The position numbers and the translations under genes are program-made. A model generated the notes under the pieces. It ran no database searches. It was not told where the DNA came from and saw only the letters and a list, made by a program, of their open reading frames with translations. Of a stretch of 64,000 nt of DNA, positions 37,678 to 56,705 are shown piece after piece; position 1 is the stretch's first letter; every line of letters starts with the position of its first letter. The stretch is from Escherichia coli (GTDB lineage Bacteria; Pseudomonadota; Gammaproteobacteria; Enterobacterales; Enterobacteriaceae): the NCBI RefSeq assembly GCF_044324875.1, contig NZ_CP172185.1. The stretch is one strand, 5' to 3'.

Positions 37678-38961
37678 TCACCGTTTGTAATCGATGGCTT
37701 CTGGCTGCTCCAGATATACGGTGGTTTGTGCCGGTTGTGTGCTGGCAATCACCTTGCCGCCACGTACCGAATAACGTACCGGAACCTGACGGCGCAGCGC
37801 ATCAAATCCATTTTCAGCCGGCAGGATAATCAGGTTGGCGCTGTTTCCGGCGGCAATGCCGTAATCCTGCAAATTCAACGTCCTGGCGCTGTGGTGGGTG
37901 ATTAAATTCAGGCCGTCGTTAATCTGCCCGTAGCCCATCAGCTGGCAAACATGCAGCCCCATATGCAGCACTTGCAGCATATTCGCCGTTCCCAGCGGAT
38001 ACCACGGATCGAAGACATCATCGTGACCAAAGCAGACGTTAATGCCTGACTCCAGCATCTCTTTAACGCGCGTGATGCCGCGACGTTTTGGATACGTATC
38101 GAAACGCCCTTGTAGATGAATATTGACCAACGGGTTGGCGACAAAGTTAATACCGGACATTTTCAGCAGGCGGAACAGGCGTGAGGTATACGCCCCGTTA
38201 TAGGAGTGCATTGCCGTAGTATGGCTGGCGGTGACTCGTGCGCCCATTCCTTCACGGTGCGCCAGGGCGGCAACGGTTTCGACAAAGCGCGACTGCTCAT
38301 CATCGATCTCATCACAGTGAACGTCGATGAGACGGTCGTATTTTTGCGCCAGGGCGAAGGTTTTATGCAGCGACTCCACGCCATATTCACGGGTAAATTC
38401 AAAATGCGGAATCGCCCCAACAACGTCTGCTCCTAAGCGTAGCGCCTCTTCCAGCAACGCTTCACCGTTGGGATACGACAAAATCCCTTCCTGCGGGAAG
38501 GCGACGATTTGCAGATCAATCCACGGCGCAACTTCCTGTTTCACTTCCAGCATCGCTTTCAACGCAGTCAGCGTTGCGTCGGAAACATCGACATGGGTAC
38601 GCACATGCTGAATGCCGTTGGCAATCTGCCATTTCAGCGTTTGCCATGCGCGTTGTTTCACATCGTCATGGGTTAATAACGCTTTGCGCTCGGCCCAGCG
38701 TTCAATGCCTTCAAACAGCGTGCCGGACTGATTCCAGTTCGGTTGCCCGGCGGTTTGCGTGGTGTCCAGGTGAATATGCGGCTCCACAAACGGCGGTAAA
38801 ACTAAACCTTGTTCGGCATCCAGGCTGTTTTCAGTTACGGGCATCACACCAGATTGCGCATCAATGGCGCTGATTTTTCCGTCCTGCAGATGAATCTGCC
38901 ACAGCCCCTCTTTGCCGGGTAACCGGGCGTTAATAATTGTTTGTAAAGCGTTATTCGACAC
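37678..38961 (-). CDS. codA: Cytosine deaminase
   Basis: GTG start giving [16 protein letters not shown]… (427 aa); amidohydrolase metal site (VEPHIHLD); overlaps the codB stop. Confidence 0.95.
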
Positions 38962-40210
38962 TGTTAGCCTCCACATGCGTCATTGCTGCTGTCGTTTTAC
39001 GATTCAAAATCGGGTTAAGGATCAGATAGCTCAGCGCGCCACCTAATACCGCGTTGACCGGAACAATTCCCGGTAACCAGTGGCCTGCGGCAATCCCCAA
39101 GGCGACCGCCAGAATCGCCACCCAATTGACACTCATCATACGCGTGGTCGCAAAGTGCTCATAGCGGCGACGGTTCATCAGATAGTCGGCGATGATCACG
39201 CCCCCTACCGGAGGAATAGCTGCCGAAAGGAAGGTCAGCCAGCCGACAAAATTGTTATACAGCCATAGTGCGCAGACCGTACCGATAATACCGTTAATCA
39301 CCGAAAGGGTTTTGCTCGACATACCGGTAATGTTGGCGAAACCTAAGCCCGACGCATAGAGCGCGTTATCGTTGGTGGTCCAGATATTCAGCCCCAGCAC
39401 CACAATCGCGGGTAGCAGCAGGCCCTGAGCAATCATCACATCAGAGATATCTGCCATGCCCAGTGCCGCCGCTCCCGCTGCACCGAAAATAAACATCAAC
39501 GAGTTGCCAAGGAAAAAGGCCACCATCGCCACCAGCACCGCCAGTTTGGCATTGCGACCAAACCGGACAAAGTCAGCGGTGAGCGTACCCGCGCTGATAA
39601 ATGACCCCACAACCAGCGCCAGCGCGACATTGAAATCTAGCGGTTGTGCAGGAACGACCGCTTTTAATGCGTCCAGGCCGCCCATGCCGTTAACGGCCAG
39701 CCACACGGAATAACCGCCAAGACAGGCGATAGCCGGAACCGCAATCACCGAAAGAACCGTCAGCGCCGAAATGCCAAAGAAGACGGTGACGGTCATCAGT
39801 AAACCGGAAACGGCAATCAGCAAATTAATATCCAGCCCGGTTGCCTTACCCACCGGAATGGCAAACATCGCCACGCCAACGCCAAACCAGCCAACCTGGG
39901 TACCCCCCAGCAGCAGTGAAGGCAGCCATGAGCCTTTAACACCAAACGAGAAGCGAGCAAGAAGATGGGTGGTCAGGCCGGTTTTTGCGCCAATGTAACC
40001 AAGAAATGAAGTGTAAATACCGAGGAGAAGATTACCGATGAGGACTGCGAGGAAGAAATCATGATAGCTAAGACCGGTTCCGAGAGTGCCGCCGGTCCAC
40101 ATACTGGCGGAAAAGAAGGTTAATCCCAGCATGACGAACGTCAATGCCAATACCCCTTTCCGCGCCGACTGCGGGACTGGCCCCTGGCTAAAGTTGTTAT
40201 CTTGCGACAC
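38951..40210 (-). CDS. codB: Cytosine permease (NCS1 family)
   Basis: 419-aa polytopic membrane ORF upstream of and overlapping codA. Confidence 0.95.
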
Positions 40211-40339
40211 GAAATTCCCCCTTTTTGCTGTTTGAAACCCAAAAAATCCGCCGCATTCTATTCATCTGAAGATAAAAAGCAATCGTTTTCGTGGGGAAAT
40301 ATATTTTTTATATGAATGAGTGCAAAAAGGTGGGGGAAA

Positions 40340-41275
40340 AATTATCCACGGTTCAGGCCTGTGGGCATGATAAGACGCGTCAGCGTCGCATCAGGCATCT
40401 GCGCACGGTGTCGGATGCGGCGCGAGCGCCTTATCTGACCTACGGTTCAGACCTGTAGGCATGATAAGAGGCACCAGCGTCGCATCAGGCATCTGCGCAC
40501 GGTGTCGGATGCGGCGCGAGCGCCTTATCCGACCTACGGTTCAGGCCTGTAGGCATGATAAGACGCGCCAGCGTCGTATCAGGCATCTGCGCACGGTGTC
40601 GGATGCGGCGCGAGCGCCTTATCCGACCTACGGTTCAGGCCTGTAGGCATGATAAGACGCACCAGCGTCGCATCAGGCATCTGCGCACGGTGTCGGATGC
40701 GGCGCGAGCGCCTTATCCGACCTACGGTTCAGACCTGTAGGCATGATAAGACGCGCCAGCGTCGCATCAGGCATCTGCGCATGGTGTCGGATGCGGCGCG
40801 AGCGCCTTATCCGACCTACGGTTCAGGCCTGTAGGCATGATAAGACGCACCAGCGTCGCATCAGGCATCGGCGCACGGTGTCGGATGCGGCGCGAGCGCC
40901 TTATCCGACCTACGGTTCAGGCCTGTAGGCATGATAAGACGCGCCAGCGTCGTATCAGGCATCTGCGCACGGTGTCGGATGCGGCGCGAGCGCCTTATCC
41001 GACCTACGGTTCAGACCTGTAGGCATGATAAGACGCGCCAGCGTCGCATCAGGCATCGGCGCACGGTGTCGGATGCGGCGCGAGCGCCTTATCCGACCTA
41101 CGGTTCAGGCCTGTAGGCATGATAAGACGCGTCAGCGTCGCATCAGGCATCGGCGCACGGTGTCGGATGCGGCGCGAGCGCCTTATCCGACCTACGGTTC
41201 AGGCCTGTAGGCATGATAAGACGCGTCAGCGTCGCATCAGGCATCGGCGCACGGTGTCGGATGCGCCACACGACG
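40340..41275. repeat. Tandem REP/BIME array, about 10 copies of a 94-bp unit
   Basis: Unit GCCTGTAGGCATGATAAGACGCGCCAGCGTCGCATCAGGCATCTGCGCACGGTGTCGGATGCGGCGCGAGCGCCTTATCCGACCTACGGTTCAG recurs with exact 94-bp period; ORF-track starts at 40461, 40555, … 41119 are 94 bp apart. Each unit holds two inverted REP palindromes. Confidence 0.9.
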
Positions 41276-41289
41276 CATCCGACAATACC

Positions 41290-43176
41290 TTACTCTTCCA
41301 TCGCCTGGCGGATCTGATCCAACGACGCAGGATCATCAATGGTCGTCAGATCCCCAGGATCGCGTCCTTCGCAAATCGCCTGGATCGTGCGGCGCAGCAT
41401 TTTTCCGGATCGCGTTTTCGGCAATTGCGAGACAAACCAGACGTGCGCCGGGCGGCCAAAGTTGCCAATCTGGCTGTCCACCAGCGCCATAATCGCCTTC
41501 TCTTGCGAGTGCGCCACCTCACGGTCTTCCAGACTGTCGCTCTCTTTCGGAATGACAAACGCCACCGCCACCTGCCCTTTCAGCGCATCTTTCACCCCAA
41601 CCACCGCCACTTCGGCAACGCCCGGATGACTGGAGATACTCTCTTCAATCTCGCGCGTCCCCAGCCGATGCCCGGCAACGTTAATCACATCGTCAGTGCG
41701 CCCGAGAATAAAGTGATAACCGTCAGCATCGCGGATACCCCAGTCAAAAGTGGCGTACACCGGACGGGAAAACAGCGACCAGTACGTCTTCACAAAGCGG
41801 TCGTCGTCGCCCCAAATGGTCTGAATACACCCCGGCGGCAATGGCCCTTCCACCACCAGCATCCCTTTCTCGTTGACGCCACACGGTTCGCCGGTGACTT
41901 CATTAAGCAACTGCACGTTATAGCCATACATCGGCACGCCGGGGCTACCCAGACGCGTCGGCCTGTCGTCCAGACCGCGAGCAATCGCCATAATCGGCCA
42001 GCCGGATTCGGTCTGCCAGTAATTGTCGATCACTGGCACATCCAGCGTATTGCTCACCCAACTGGCGGTCGGCTCGTCCAGCGGTTCTCCAGCCAGATAG
42101 AGCACTTCCAGCGACGAGAGATCGTGTTTGCGAATTTCAGCGGTAGGGAATTTTTTCAGCACGCGAATGGCGGTCGGCGCTGAGAACATCCGGCTAACCT
42201 GATATTTCTCGACGATTTTCCACCACACGCCGCAGTCCGGCCAGGTCGGTAATCCTTCGTAAACGATAGTCGCCATCCCCGCCAGCAGCGGCGCGTAGAC
42301 GATATACGAATGCCCCACCACCCAGCCGATATCCGAAGCACAAAAGAACACACCGCCCGCTTTGCCGCCAAAAATGGTGTCCATCGAGGTCGCCAGCGCC
42401 ACCGCATATCCGCCAACGTCACGCTGCACGCCTTTAGGTTTGCCGGTCGTGCCGGAGGTGTAGAGAATGCAGGAGGTTTCGTTGGATTCCAGCCACGCCA
42501 CCGGTACCCGCGCGCCGATGTGTTGATGGCGCAACGACGCGAAATCGACATCCCGCCCGCTGACGCGTGCCATTTTCGCCAGCCCGCGATCCACCAGCAA
42601 AACATGGCGTGGCTGGTGCTGCGCCTGACTTATCGCATCGTCGAGCAATTTTTTATAGGGAATGATTTTGCCACCGCGCGCTCCGGCATCAGCCGAGACA
42701 ATCAGCACCGGTTTAGCATCATCAATTCGCGCCGCCACGCTGTGCGAGGCAAATCCCCCAAACACCACCGAGTGAATAGCGCCAATGCGCGCGCAAGCCA
42801 GCAGAGTAATATGTGCTTCGGCAATCATCGGCATATACACCAGCACCCGATCGCCGCGCTGCACACCCAGCGAGCGCAGCATTGAGGCCACCGCATTCAC
42901 TTCGTCATGTAACTGGCGGAAGGTAAAGGTGCGCTCTTCTTCTGTTTCCGAAGAGACGGCAATCAGCGCCAGCGCCTCTGGCTGTTTCTCCAGCCAGCGG
43001 TCGATAGCGTTGTGACACAAGTTGGTTCGGCCTTCACAAAACCAACGGGCAAACGGCGGATTGCTGTGATCGAGCGTTTGCGTAAAGGGCGTCTGCCAGT
43101 CAATACGCCGGGCCTGCTCGGCCCAGAACTTCTCCGGTTCGTTAATCGAACGCTGATAAAATTCGCTAAAAGACAT
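41290..43176 (-). CDS. prpE: Propionyl-CoA synthetase
   Basis: 628 aa; AMP-binding signature YTSGTTGKPKG. Confidence 0.95.
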   Translation of the reverse strand: MSFSEFYQRSINEPEKFWAEQARRIDWQTPFTQTLDHSNPPFARWFCEGRTNLCHNAIDRWLEKQPEALALIAVSSETEEERTFTFRQLHDEVNAVASMLRSLGVQRGDRVLVYMPMIAEAHITLLACARIGAIHSVVFGGFASHSVAARIDDAKPVLIVSADAGARGGKIIPYKKLLDDAISQAQHQPRHVLLVDRGLAKMARVSGRDVDFASLRHQHIGARVPVAWLESNETSCILYTSGTTGKPKGVQRDVGGYAVALATSMDTIFGGKAGGVFFCASDIGWVVGHSYIVYAPLLAGMATIVYEGLPTWPDCGVWWKIVEKYQVSRMFSAPTAIRVLKKFPTAEIRKHDLSSLEVLYLAGEPLDEPTASWVSNTLDVPVIDNYWQTESGWPIMAIARGLDDRPTRLGSPGVPMYGYNVQLLNEVTGEPCGVNEKGMLVVEGPLPPGCIQTIWGDDDRFVKTYWSLFSRPVYATFDWGIRDADGYHFILGRTDDVINVAGHRLGTREIEESISSHPGVAEVAVVGVKDALKGQVAVAFVIPKESDSLEDREVAHSQEKAIMALVDSQIGNFGRPAHVWFVSQLPKTRSGKMLRRTIQAICEGRDPGDLTTIDDPASLDQIRQAMEE

Positions 43177-43215: not shown

Positions 43216-44667
43216 TTAAATGACGTACAGGTCGAGATACTCATTGACCGGCATCTGTTCCAGGCGAGCTCTGTCGAGAGAAACCTCCAGAATGCGCTGC
43301 TGTTGGCGAGTCGGGAACTGGCGCGCGAGATTGATTTTGAATTTATCGACCAGCTTCGGAATGCCATCCTGACGGCGGCGAGCATGACCAATTGGGTACT
43401 CCACCACCACTTCTTCAAATCGCGTACCGTCGGTGAACTCAAGGGTTATGGCATTGGCGATGGCACGTTTTTCCGGGTCGTGGTAGTCAGCGGTAAATGC
43501 CGGATCTTCAAAGCAATTGATCTTCTCGCGCAGGGCGTCGATGCGTTTATCTTGCGCAACGTTGTCCTCGTAATCTGCCGCCGTTAAGCGTCCGAACAGC
43601 AGCGGGATCGCCACCATGTACTGAATGCAGTGATCGCGGTCTGCCGGGTTATTGAGCGGTCCTTTTTTGTCGATGATGCGAATACAGGCTTCGTGGGTGC
43701 GAATGGTCACTTTTTCGATATCTGCCGCCGTTTTGCCTGCTGCCTGCATCTGTTCATAGAGCGTCATCGCTGCTTCAACTGCCGTCTGGGAGTGGAACTC
43801 CGCCGGGAAGGAGATTTTGAACAGCACATTTTCCATCACGTAAGAACCGTACGGGCGCTGGAAGCGGAACGACTCACCTTTGAAGGAGACGTCGTAGAAG
43901 CCCCACACAGGCGCAGTCAGGGCTGACGGGTAACCCATTTCGCCCGTTTTCGCCATCAGTGCCAGACGTACCGCGCGGGAAGTGGCATCGCCCGCCGCCC
44001 AGGATTTACGCGTGCCGGTGTTCGGCGCATGGCGATAGGTGCGCAGCGACTGACCGTCCACCCACGCCAGCGAAACGGCGTTGAGAATTTCCTCGCGGGT
44101 CAGGCCGAGCATTTCGGCGACCACGGCGGTGGAAGCCACTTTCACTAACAGAACGTGGTCGAGGCCGACGCGGTTAAAGGAGTTTTCCAGCGCGATGCAG
44201 CCCTGAATTTCATGGGCTTTGATCATTGCGGTCAGCACCTGTTTCATGGTCAACGGCGCTTTGCCGCTGGCGACCGCGTTGCGCGAAAGCCAGTCCGCCG
44301 TTGCCAGAATGCCGCCGAGGTTGTCGGAAGGATGGCCCCACTCCGCCGCCAGCCAGGTATCGTTGAAATCAAGCCAGCGGATCATCGCGCCAATGTTAAA
44401 TGCCGCCTGGACGGGGTCGAGCTGGAACTGAGTTCCGGGGACGCGCACGCCGTTAGGTACGACAGTGCCGGGGACAATTGGCCCCAGCAGTTTTTTACAG
44501 GCCGGGTATTCGAGAGCTTCAAGACCGCAGCCGAGAGTGTCGAGCAGGCAGTAATGTGCGGTGTCGTAGGCCACTTTAGAGCTAATTTCGTAGTTCATGA
44601 CGTAATCGACGATATCAACGATTTCACGATCAAATTCCGGGCGGATGTTGTTGATTTGAGCTGACAT
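43216..44667 (-). CDS. prpD: 2-methylcitrate dehydratase
   Basis: 483-aa ORF recognised as PrpD. Confidence 0.95.
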
Positions 44668-45889: not shown

Positions 45890-46390
45890 TCATTTGTAGG
45901 GTCGAGATTGTTGTCGGATGCGACGCTATGCGTCTTATCCGACCTACAGTTCAGTTCACCCCGCAGGCCTGATAAGCCGCGTCAGCGTCGCATCAGGCAT
46001 CGGTTGTCGGATGCGACGCCATGCGTCTTATCCGACCTACAGTTCAGTTCACCCCGTAGGCCTGATAAGTCGCGTCAGCGGCGCATCAGGCATCGGTTGT
46101 CGGATGCGACGCCATACGTCTTATCCGACCTACAGTTCAGCACGCCCCGTAGGCCTGATAAGCCGCGTCAGCGGCGCATCAGGCATCGGTTGTCGGATGC
46201 GACGCTATGCGTCTTATCCGACCTACAGTTCAGTTCACCCCGTAGGCCTGATAAGCCGCGTCAGCGGCGCATCAGGCATCGGTTGTCGGATGCGACGCTA
46301 TGCGTCTTATCCGACCTACAGTTCAGTTCATCCCGTAGGCCTGATAAGCCGCGTCAGCGGCGCATCAGGCATCGGTTGTCGAATACAACC
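45890..46390. repeat. Tandem REP/BIME array, about 5 copies of a ~95-bp unit, between prpC and prpB
   Basis: Repeated GTCGGATGCGACGC…CTTATCCGACCTACAGTTCAG…GGCCTGATAAGCCGCGTCAGCG…CATCAGGCATCGGTT; ORF-track peptides repeat with about 32-aa period. Confidence 0.85.
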
Positions 46391-46402
46391 AACGGGCGTT
46401 TT

Positions 46403-56494: not shown

Positions 56495-56705
56495 TGGGGT
56501 TATGACCAACGCCAGACTGCCTGATGCGCTACGCTTATCAGGCCTAGAATTCTCGTGCCATTCGTAGGCCGGATAAGGCGTTCACGCCGCATCCGGCAAT
56601 GGTGACAAATGCCTGATGCGCTACGCTTATCAGGCCTACAGATTCTCGCGCCACTCGTAGGCCGGATAAGGCGTTCACGCCGCATCCGGCAGAGACAACG
56701 CGCAC
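56495..56705. repeat. REP/BIME elements between yahI and yahG
   Basis: Two copies of CCTGATGCGCTACGCTTATCAGGCCTA…CGTAGGCCGGATAAGGCGTTCACGCCGCATCCGGCA. Confidence 0.85.

What the first reader, a model, noticed from the sequence alone, without database searches (positions are those of the whole stretch)
40340..41275. Ten-unit tandem REP/BIME array (94-bp period) between codB and prpE
About 10 near-identical 94-bp units, each holding two oppositely oriented REP palindromes, fill almost 1 kb of intergenic DNA. The repetition creates a ladder of artefactual 61-aa ORFs in the track, with starts exactly 94 bp apart. I recall fewer copies at this site in K-12, so copy number looks expanded here. Arrays like this are recombination hot-spots and can affect transcript stability.
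Basis: partly seen in the sequence, partly recalled or inferred. Interest (0 to 1): 0.35.

Follow-up and report, generated by a model that had tools for sequence, protein, structure and literature searches.

The report
Expanded REP (BIME-2) repeat array
This is an ordinary E. coli REP/BIME-2 palindrome array between prpE and codB that carries 10 copies of a 94-bp unit where K-12 has 2; it is a known kind of variable-number repeat, not a new element.

Summary
Positions 40348-41265 hold 9.8 head-to-tail copies of a 94-bp unit (96% matches, no indels), filling most of the 1079-bp spacer between codB and prpE, both on the minus strand.

**What each unit is.** Each unit holds one z2-type REP and one inverted y-type REP, joined head-to-head by a 13-nt linker and tail-to-tail by an 11-nt linker. 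This is the defining architecture of a BIME-2. Rfam scores 9 units above threshold as naRNA4, the model built from K-12's REP325 array, on the strand transcribed from prpE.

**Copy number.**
- K-12 has 2 units at this site.
- In 117 sampled complete E. coli genomes, 89% have 1-3 units; O157:H7 has 8.
- In the window's own clade (48 records) the counts are 5, 7, 8, 9 (31 records), 10 and 11. The window is therefore the modal count plus one, not a record.

**How it changes.** Unit-order comparison shows whole-unit gains and losses, a chimeric unit and a 3-unit block duplication, which are signatures of unequal recombination or slippage.

**ORFs.** The 61-aa ORF ladder is an artefact.

**Function (inferred).** The array probably acts as a 3'-UTR hairpin barrier and partial terminator between the prp operon and codBA, and as a set of gyrase sites.

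Verdict: real, correctly interpreted, already known in kind, low interest.

The parts
40346..41284 (-). Whole REP cluster: a BIME-2 array of 10 z2 REPs, 9 y REPs and a terminal short hairpin. The minus strand is the one transcribed from prpE towards codB.
   Evidence: TRF gives period 94 and 9.8 copies. There are 10 in-register copies. Rfam naRNA4 hits are on the minus strand.
40340..40446 (.). Left junction plus unit 1 (type A, which is clade type L with a private C>T at 40436 in the y-REP stem).
   Evidence: Unit typing is; the variable-site table is.
40447..40540 (.). Unit 2 (type B, which is clade type M with a private C>G at 40470 in the z2-REP stem).
40541..40634 (.). Unit 3 (type C).
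40635..40728 (.). Unit 4 (type D).
40729..40822 (.). Unit 5 (type E; among the fetched relatives it is shared only with strain ECA64).
40823..40916 (.). Unit 6 (type F).
40917..41010 (.). Unit 7 (type C again; the only unit type present twice, and the source of the 144-nt longest exact internal repeat).
41011..41104 (.). Unit 8 (type G).
41105..41198 (.). Unit 9 (type H; among the fetched relatives it is shared only with strain 042).
41199..41292 (.). Unit 10 (type I): the last z2 REP, the terminal hairpin and the prpE stop codon.
41255..41284 (-). Terminal 13-bp perfect hairpin (a shortened y-like REP). It starts 5 nt after the prpE UAA stop and has no U-tract.
   Evidence: The RNA fold gives -24.8 kcal/mol with z = -4.9. 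No intrinsic terminator is called. It is present in every fetched allele, including the 1-unit allele.
40298..40326 (-). Sigma-70-like promoter match, the probable codBA promoter. It lies in the 135 nt of unique DNA between the array and codB and is untouched by copy-number change.
   Evidence: the left flank is identical in K-12 and the window up to 40346.
38951..40210 (-). codB (cytosine permease), the gene downstream of the array.
   Evidence: NCBIfam NF008241, 695 bits.
41290..43176 (-). prpE (propionate--CoA ligase), the gene upstream of the array.
   Evidence: NCBIfam TIGR02316, 1304 bits.
40461..41210 (+). Ladder of seven overlapping 61-aa ORFs (artefacts of the repeat, not genes).
   Evidence: The ORFs are listed. 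Frames rotate 2, 0, 1 and so on. There is no Pfam match. PGAP calls no CDS in this spacer in the 13 relatives fetched.

Best explanation
**What it is.** This is a BIME-2-type REP array, a variable-number tandem repeat of a 94-bp unit. Each unit consists of a z2 REP, a 13-nt head-to-head linker, an inverted y REP and an 11-nt tail-to-tail linker. The array occupies the spacer between the last gene of the propionate operon (prpE) and the codBA operon.

**Shown here.**
- The architecture is as described.
- The array is homologous to K-12's 2-unit element at the same site.
- Copy number differs between E. coli genomes only in whole units, from 1 to 11.
- Alleles differ by internal unit gains and losses, a chimeric unit and a 3-unit block duplication.

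**Inferred origin.** The array grows and shrinks by unequal homologous recombination or replication slippage between units. The REP-associated transposase TnpA-REP may also contribute.

**Inferred function, by analogy with K-12 REP325.** REP325 has the same unit organisation and the same polarity between two co-directional genes.
- When the prp operon is transcribed, the array forms the 3' UTR. Its roughly 20 hairpins would block 3'-to-5' exonucleases, stabilising prp mRNA.
- The hairpins would also attenuate read-through into codBA, partly through Rho. codBA keeps its own promoter in the 135 nt of unique DNA next to codB.
- At the DNA level, the y REPs are likely gyrase binding and cleavage sites.
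- Ten units rather than two would be expected to strengthen the insulation, but the extra copies may equally be neutral.
For: **Structure.** TRF gives period 94, 9.8 copies and no indels. There are 10 GTAG-first z2 REPs and 9 CTAC-last y REPs. The linkers are 13 and 11 nt and there is no IHF consensus. Nine units score 63-72 bits against Rfam naRNA4 (gathering score 59.5) on the minus strand, and the alignment shows a Y hairpin, a linker and a Z2 hairpin. K-12 REP325 has the same layout and the same polarity relative to yjdM and yjdN.

**Definition of BIME-2.** PMC3333891 defines BIME-2 as z2 + y REPs in tandem copies with a short S linker. The same paper states that copy number at a locus varies among strains.

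**Population.**
- K-12 has 2 units.
- A sample of 117 genomes gives 1 unit in 37, 2 units in 54, 3 in 13, 5 in 1, 8 in 11 and 9 in 1.
- The window's clade of 48 records gives 5 units in 4, 7 in 1, 8 in 6, 9 in 31, 10 in 5 and 11 in 1.

**Mechanism signatures.**
- Three different 10-unit alleles exist: window ABCDEFCGHI, ECA64 LMCDEFCCGI and 300033 LMCDFCCCGI.
- WP8-S18 carries a chimeric unit N, made of the head of C and the tail of G.
- The 11-unit allele LMCDFCDFCGI carries a CDF block duplication.
- O157:H7's 8 units are built from different unit variants, which indicates an independent expansion.

**Function by analogy.**
- REP325 acts as a partly Rho-dependent terminator and as a stabiliser of the upstream mRNA. 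The Rho dependence emerges only with the full-length array (bioRxiv 10.64898/2026.03.23.713779).
- Gyrase cleavage sites are enriched in BIME-2, mostly in y REPs (PMC6379681).
- No intrinsic terminator lies in the spacer, so any termination after prpE must be of the REP or Rho type.
Against: - No expression, RNA 3'-end, Rho or gyrase data exist for this locus or strain. All functional statements are by analogy.
- Variation among units does not significantly avoid the REP stems: 5 of 12 variable sites lie in stems, p = 0.35. So this data set gives no evidence of selection on the hairpins.
- REP effects are reported to be strongly context-dependent, and REPs do not uniformly change mRNA half-lives (abstract).
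- Slippage or unequal crossover cannot be separated from TnpA-REP-catalysed amplification on sequence alone, because both change copy number by whole units.
Confidence: 0.85

Rival explanations
1. Neutral or selfish repeat. The array is a BIME-2, but its size has no regulatory meaning. Copy number simply drifts through slippage and unequal recombination, and the clade-specific counts are historical accident.
For: - Alleles from 1 to 11 units all coexist in healthy lineages.
- Size homoplasy and frequent single-unit changes occur within one clade.
- There is no significant stem conservation signal.
- The codB promoter region lies outside the array, so all alleles keep it.
Against: - In REP325, array length matters for Rho-dependent attenuation.
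- Within the window's clade the 9-unit allele is held by 31 of 48 records. That could reflect stability or selection, but also shared ancestry.
Confidence: 0.4
2. Cluster of naRNA4-like small-RNA genes. Each unit would yield a 77-nt RNA that binds the nucleoid protein HU and helps condense the chromosome, so more units would mean more naRNA.
For: Nine units pass the Rfam RF02564 gathering score on the transcribed strand. PMC4550694 reports naRNA1-6 from REP325 binding HU and restoring nucleoid condensation.
Against: - A 2026 preprint that shares an author with the original paper finds that REP325 deletion or overexpression does not change nucleoid volume, and that no stable HU-DNA-naRNA4 complex forms.
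- The Rfam model is in effect a y + z2 REP-pair model, so a hit shows REP architecture rather than sRNA function.
- The opposite strand also scores 35-54 bits.
Confidence: 0.08
3. Assembly artefact. The true array in this strain is shorter or longer, and the count of 10 comes from mis-assembly of near-identical repeats.
For: - Unit C occurs twice, so the path C-D-E-F-C could be traversed a different number of times if reads are shorter than about 145 nt.
- Two window-private substitutions (40436, 40470) both break REP stems and might be polishing errors.
- The exact window allele is not found in 5,426 complete genomes; the best match is 99.7% identical.
Against: - Nine of the ten units are distinguishable, and the longest exact internal repeat is 144 nt, so ordinary 150-250-nt reads resolve the array.
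- Independent complete genomes of the same clade carry 7-11 units with the same unit order.
- The window's order is a plausible mosaic of units seen in relatives: E occurs in ECA64 and the G-H-I tail occurs in 042.
Confidence: 0.07
4. Expansion is catalysed by the REP-associated tyrosine transposase (TnpA-REP/RAYT) acting on BIME units, rather than by homology-driven slippage or unequal crossover.
For: - PMC3333891 shows that TnpA-REP cleaves and recombines BIMEs in vitro, and it proposes a unit-addition model.
- The units carry the required GTAG tetranucleotide and the stem mismatch.
Against: - The chimeric unit N and the 3-unit block duplication are what homologous misalignment produces, and they need no site-specific enzyme.
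- The y REP foot here is GACC|TAC rather than GGCC|TAC, which PMC3333891 associates with weaker cleavage.
- No RAYT gene was looked for in this window.
Confidence: 0.15
5. A CRISPR-like array, or a genuine coding region consisting of the 61-aa ORF ladder and the 354-aa ORF.
For: Only the regular spacing of short palindromic repeats and the presence of open reading frames.
Against: - The inter-REP linkers are conserved between units and are not unique spacers.
- The neighbours are the cod, prp, cyn and lac genes, with no cas genes.
- The ORFs overlap each other in rotating frames and have no Pfam match.
- PGAP annotates no CDS in this spacer in the 13 related genomes fetched.
Confidence: 0.01

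Closest known systems
The REP element at the same prpE-codB junction of E. coli K-12 MG1655
   Same: It has the same flanks, the same terminal hairpin 5 nt after the prpE stop, the same z2-linker-y organisation and the same 94-bp register.
   Different: K-12 has 2 units in a 329-bp spacer, against 10 units in 1079 bp here. The left junction also differs: K-12 reads GGTGTAAAAACAGTGGGTAGG and the window reads CACGGTTCAGGCCTGTGGG.
REP325 / naRNA1-6 array between yjdM and yjdN of K-12 (Rfam RF02564 naRNA4)
   Same: It is a BIME-2 of y + z2 REP pairs in tandem, lying between two co-directional genes with the same polarity. The units align through both REPs and the head-to-head linker. It is the best experimental model for function, as a terminator plus stabiliser.
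   Different: REP325 has a 100-bp period and 5.8 copies, with a longer and unrelated tail-to-tail spacer. The y REP foot here carries a compensated GTCGG...CCGAC in place of GCCGG...CCGGC. It is a different locus with different flanking genes.
The 8-unit allele of the same locus in E. coli O157:H7
   Same: Same locus, same 94-bp unit and a comparable size.
   Different: It is built from different unit variants (types O-U, one of them 93 nt long) and has the K-12-type left junction. This points to an independent expansion.
BIME-2 gyrase sites such as sucC-sucB and tldD-yhdP
   Same: The same family of y/z2 tandem REPs. Gyrase cleaves mainly in y REPs (PMC6379681).
   Different: Gyrase cleavage has not been examined at this locus or in this strain.
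BIME-1 / RIB-RIP elements
   Same: A REP pair in inverse orientation located at the 3' ends of transcription units.
   Different: BIME-1 uses z1 + y REPs with a long L linker carrying an IHF site, and it occurs as a single copy. Here the REPs are z2 + y, the linker is 13 nt, there is no IHF consensus and there are 10 tandem copies.

Membership tests
BIME-2 | Built from y-type and z2-type REPs | tested here: met
   The Rfam naRNA4 model (Y + Z2 of REP325) aligns end to end at 63-72 bits. The family definition is from PMC3333891.
BIME-2 | REP and inverted REP alternate (head-to-head, then tail-to-tail), each with a GTAG/CTAC tetranucleotide at its foot | tested here: met
   There are 10 GTAG-first z2 REPs and 9 CTAC-last y REPs in strict alternation.
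BIME-2 | Short S-type head-to-head linker, not the long IHF-binding L linker of BIME-1 | tested here: met
   The linker is 13 nt (ATCGGCGCACGGT). There is no WATCAANNNNTTR match on either strand of 40340-41290.
BIME-2 | Occurs as multiple tandem copies in extragenic DNA, with copy number variable between strains | tested here: met
   There are 9.8 copies in the codB-prpE spacer. Other genomes carry 1-11 units.
BIME-2 | Imperfect stem (internal mismatch) in each REP | tested here: met
   The Rfam consensus structure shows unpaired internal positions in both hairpins, and the window's sequence keeps them.
BIME-2 | Bound and cleaved by DNA gyrase in vivo | not testable with these tools
   Known for other BIME-2 loci (PMC6379681); there are no data for this locus.
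naRNA4 (Rfam RF02564) | Covariance-model score at or above the curated gathering score | tested here: met
   Nine hits score 63.3-72.4 bits against a gathering score of 59.5, all on the minus strand. A tenth, over the terminal hairpin, scores 49.9 bits, below threshold.
naRNA4 (Rfam RF02564) | Expressed as discrete ~77-nt RNAs that bind HU | not testable with these tools
   There are no expression data. The biological role itself is disputed.
Intrinsic (Rho-independent) terminator | GC-rich hairpin followed by a U-tract | tested here: not met
   No terminator-like site lies within 40211-41289. The terminal hairpin is followed by CCGUGCGCC, not by U's.
CRISPR array | Unique spacers between identical repeats, with cas genes nearby | tested here: not met
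   The linkers are conserved between units. The neighbours are the cod, prp, cyn, lac and yah genes.
REPIN/RAYT system | A cognate RAYT (tnpA-REP) gene flanked by the same REPs in the genome | not tested
   No RAYT search was made. In K-12 the gene lies outside the region this window corresponds to (my own knowledge, not checked here).

The most novel reading that the evidence does not exclude
Copy number of this BIME-2 may be a selected, heritable 'dial' that sets how strongly the propionate operon is insulated from codBA and how long prp mRNA survives. On this reading, the independent expansions to 8 units in O157:H7 and 5-11 units in the window's clade would be adaptive rather than drift. 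The natural allelic series of 1-11 units would then be a ready-made test of the recent 'REP arrays are dual terminator-stabilisers whose Rho dependence needs full array length' model.
Probability: 0.15. Interest if true: 0.45.

Novelty: already known. Interest (0 to 1): 0.15.

Why it matters
In itself it matters little. REP/BIME-2 arrays, their variable copy number between strains, and a REP element at this very junction are all established.

The practical points are these:
1. Gene callers should not annotate the 61-aa ORFs. A comparable phantom ORF is in fact annotated in the neighbouring prpB-prpC array of strain 042.
2. The locus is a hypervariable VNTR with 1-11 units, clade-specific modes and size homoplasy. 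It is usable for fine typing but unreliable as a phylogenetic marker.
3. The natural allelic series offers a convenient way to test whether REP-array length tunes termination and mRNA stability between co-directional genes.

Tried and rejected
1. **Stem conservation test.** I asked whether variable sites among 16 distinct units avoid the REP stems. Five of 12 lie in stems, hypergeometric p = 0.35. This is inconclusive, so I make no claim of selection on the hairpins.
2. **Pfam scan of the ORFs.** The 61-aa and 354-aa ORFs gave no hits.
3. **Literature search for this locus.** A search for prpE + codB + REP returned three unrelated papers. I found no paper about this particular array.
4. **Search for REPs close to stop codons.** I looked for the paper on REPs near stop codons triggering ribosome stalling and trans-translation. 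It is not in the searchable library. I therefore mention the hairpin 5 nt after the prpE stop only as an observation.
5. **Intrinsic terminator or IHF site in the array.** Neither was found.
6. **Ranking genomes by array length.** I considered using an artificially long array as the query. I rejected it because offset repeat alignments would tile the query in any genome with a few units. I used array-deleted flank queries instead.
7. **CRISPR and coding readings.** Both were rejected (see rival explanations).

Full report
**Observation.** Tandem Repeats Finder finds a single array at 40348-41265 with period 94, 9.8 copies, 96% matches, no indels and score 1703. The repeat finder gives ten in-register copies at exactly 94-bp spacing. 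The flanking ORFs are codA and codB (37678-38976 and 38951-40210, minus strand) and prpE and prpD (41290-43176 and 43216-44667, minus strand), each matching its NCBIfam equivalog model far above cut-off. The codB-prpE spacer is 1079 bp. The array fills all of it except 135 nt next to codB and 5 nt next to the prpE stop. The ORF ladder also exists. Seven 61-aa ORFs start at 40461, 40555 and so on to 41025, rotating through the three frames because 94 = 3 x 31 + 1.

**Anatomy.** Read on the + strand, each unit has four parts:
- a z2-type REP preceded by GTAG (GTAGGCATGATAAGACGCGCCAGCGTCGCATCAGGC, 36 nt);
- a 13-nt head-to-head linker;
- an inverted y-type REP ending in CTAC (GTCGGATGCGGCGCGAGCGCCTTATCCGACCTAC, 34 nt);
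- an 11-nt tail-to-tail linker.

There are 10 z2 REPs and 9 y REPs. In the tenth unit the y REP is replaced by a shorter perfect 13-bp hairpin at 41255-41284. As RNA on the minus strand this hairpin folds at -24.8 kcal/mol with z = -4.9. It begins 5 nt after the prpE UAA stop and has no U-tract.

Rfam places nine units above the gathering score of RF02564 (naRNA4), at 63-72 bits against 59.5. All nine are on the minus strand, the strand transcribed from prpE towards codB. The alignment shows a Y hairpin, a linker and a Z2 hairpin. The plus strand scores lower, at 35-54 bits. The Rfam family was built from REP325 of K-12. I fetched that array and found the same organisation: period 100, 5.8 copies, z2-linker-y, and the same polarity relative to its co-directional flanking genes yjdM and yjdN.

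**Family.** Ton-Hoang et al. [quoted passage not shown] BIME-1, in contrast, is z1 + y with a long IHF-binding L linker and occurs as a single copy. All sequence-level criteria for BIME-2 are met here. The IHF consensus is absent. [quoted passage not shown] Both the kind of element and its polymorphism are therefore established knowledge.

**Comparison with K-12 and the species.**
- In MG1655 the prpE-codB spacer is 329 bp and holds two units: z2, y, z2 and the terminal hairpin.
- To measure copy number without REP cross-hits, I searched 5,426 complete E. coli genomes with array-deleted flank queries and read the gap between the two flank matches.
- Two evenly spaced samples totalling 117 genomes gave 1 unit in 37, 2 units in 54, 3 in 13, 5 in 1, 8 in 11 (seven of them O157) and 9 in 1. 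None had 10.
- In four of the 117, an IS621 element sits inside the spacer.
- The window's own clade is the 48 records with at least 99.3% flank identity, including strains 042 and Ecol_316. It gave 5 units in 4 records, 7 in 1, 8 in 6, 9 in 31, 10 in 5 and 11 in 1.
- Ten units is therefore rare in the species, but it is only one above the mode of its lineage and is not the maximum.
- These counts are of database records, which include duplicate depositions and are biased towards clinical lineages.

**How the array changes.** I split the spacer of 14 alleles at the unit boundary and gave each distinct unit a letter.

| Strain | Units | Unit order |
|---|---|---|
| window | 10 | A B C D E F C G H I (A and B are clade types L and M, each with one private substitution) |
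| ECA64 | 10 | L M C D E F C C G I |
| 300033 | 10 | L M C D F C C C G I |
| Ecol_316 | 9 | L M C D F C C G I |
| WP8-S18 | 8 | L M C D F C N I |
| SW070912 | 7 | L D F C C G I |
| 042 | 5 | L C G H I |
| CNREC_004-43 | 11 | L M C D F C D F C G I |

- Three different 10-unit alleles exist, so size is homoplasious.
- N is a chimera of the head of C and the tail of G, exactly what a misaligned exchange between neighbouring units yields.
- The 11-unit allele carries a C-D-F block duplication.
- O157:H7's eight units are different variants with the K-12-type left junction, so that expansion was independent.
- The neighbouring arrays have the same copy number in the window and in strain 042: 5.1 copies for prpB-prpC and 1.9 for yahI-yahG. 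The prpE-codB array differs between them, 9.8 against 4.8. The instability is therefore local to this array.
- These patterns fit unequal homologous recombination or replication slippage. TnpA-REP-catalysed unit addition (PMC3333891) cannot be excluded from sequence alone.

**Is the count an assembly artefact?** This cannot be tested directly. However, nine of the ten units are distinguishable, and the longest exact internal repeat is 144 nt, so reads longer than about 150 nt resolve the array. The unit order is a sensible mosaic of units seen in relatives. Independent complete genomes carry 7-11 units in the same order. The two window-private substitutions (40436 C>T and 40470 C>G) both break REP stems and could be real or polishing errors.

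**Function (inferred).** No intrinsic terminator lies in the spacer, and the only sigma-70-like site near codB (40326-40298, minus strand) is outside the array. The array would be transcribed as the 3' end of prpBCDE mRNA.

The closest experimental model is REP325. A 2026 preprint (10.64898/2026.03.23.713779) reports the following:
- REP325 does not compact the nucleoid.
- It stabilises the upstream yjdM mRNA.
- It reduces downstream yjdN expression about 8-10-fold.
- It yields a ladder of truncated transcripts.
- It shows Rho dependence only as a full-length array, not as 2-4 hairpins.

By analogy, the most likely role here is a hairpin barrier and partial terminator between the prp operon and codBA, and ten units would act more strongly than K-12's two. 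BIME-2 y REPs are also preferred gyrase cleavage sites (PMC6379681). None of this was measured for this locus. My test for constraint on the stems was not significant: 5 of 12 variable sites lie in stems, p = 0.35. A neutral reading of the extra copies therefore remains fully open.

**The ORFs.** The 61-aa ORFs overlap one another in rotating frames and have no Pfam match. PGAP annotates no CDS in this spacer in any of the 13 relatives fetched. They are artefacts.

**Verdict.** It is a known kind of element (BIME-2) at a known site, showing a known kind of polymorphism. The specific allele is not present in the complete-genome collection (best match 99.7%), but that is expected for a fast-changing VNTR. 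Interest is low. The modest upside is that the natural 1-11-unit series could test whether REP-array length tunes termination and mRNA stability.

Noticed in passing
window 45910-46381: A second REP array lies between prpC and prpB, with a 93-bp period and 5.1 copies. Four of its units pass the Rfam naRNA4 threshold on the minus strand. K-12 has 4.1 copies, and strain 042 has 5.1, the same as the window. This array is much less variable than the prpE-codB array within the clade.
   Followed up: partly
L015 25749-26288 (strain 042; corresponds to the prpB-prpC array near window 45900-46400): RefSeq/PGAP annotates a 'hypothetical protein' (EC042_RS29940, WP_001526095.1) inside the prpB-prpC REP array, overlapping prpB. 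It is almost certainly a REP-derived phantom ORF of the same kind as the 61-aa ladder.
   Followed up: no
window 56518-56691: A third REP cluster has a 93-bp period and 1.9 copies, with one Rfam naRNA4 hit at 56567-56636 on the + strand. It contains a z1-like REP (TGCCTGATGCGCTACGCTTATCAGGCCTAC) together with a y REP. By comparison with strain 042 it lies between the yahI and yahG homologues.
   Followed up: partly
L011 1035-2314 (strain UC4315), and hits H73, H79, H136: In 4 of 117 sampled genomes an IS621 (IS110 family) element is inserted in the prpE-codB spacer. In UC4315 it sits in the tail of the first z2 REP (GGGTAG | GCCTGATAAG). IS621 is known to target REP sequences (PMC1525189).
   Followed up: partly
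window 40436 and 40470: Two substitutions are private to the window relative to all fetched relatives: C>T in the y-REP stem of unit 1 and C>G in the z2-REP stem of unit 2. Both weaken a hairpin. They may be real mutations or consensus errors.
   Followed up: partly
window 41255-41292: A perfect 13-bp hairpin starts only 5 nt after the prpE stop codon and is present in every allele examined, including the 1-unit allele. From memory (not verified here), REPs within about 15 nt of a stop codon have been reported to stall terminating ribosomes and lower protein yield. That would apply to prpE in all strains, independently of copy number.
   Followed up: no
window 40340-40360 compared with L001 (K-12) and L009/L013: The left junction of the array has at least three forms. 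The window's clade has CACGGTTCAGGCCTGTGGG. K-12, O157 and others have GGTGTAAAAACAGTGGGTAGG. Strains MMC-J-0066 and 118UI have a GGGTAGTGGGTAGG duplication followed by the window-type units. This suggests past rearrangement or recombination at the array edge.
   Followed up: no
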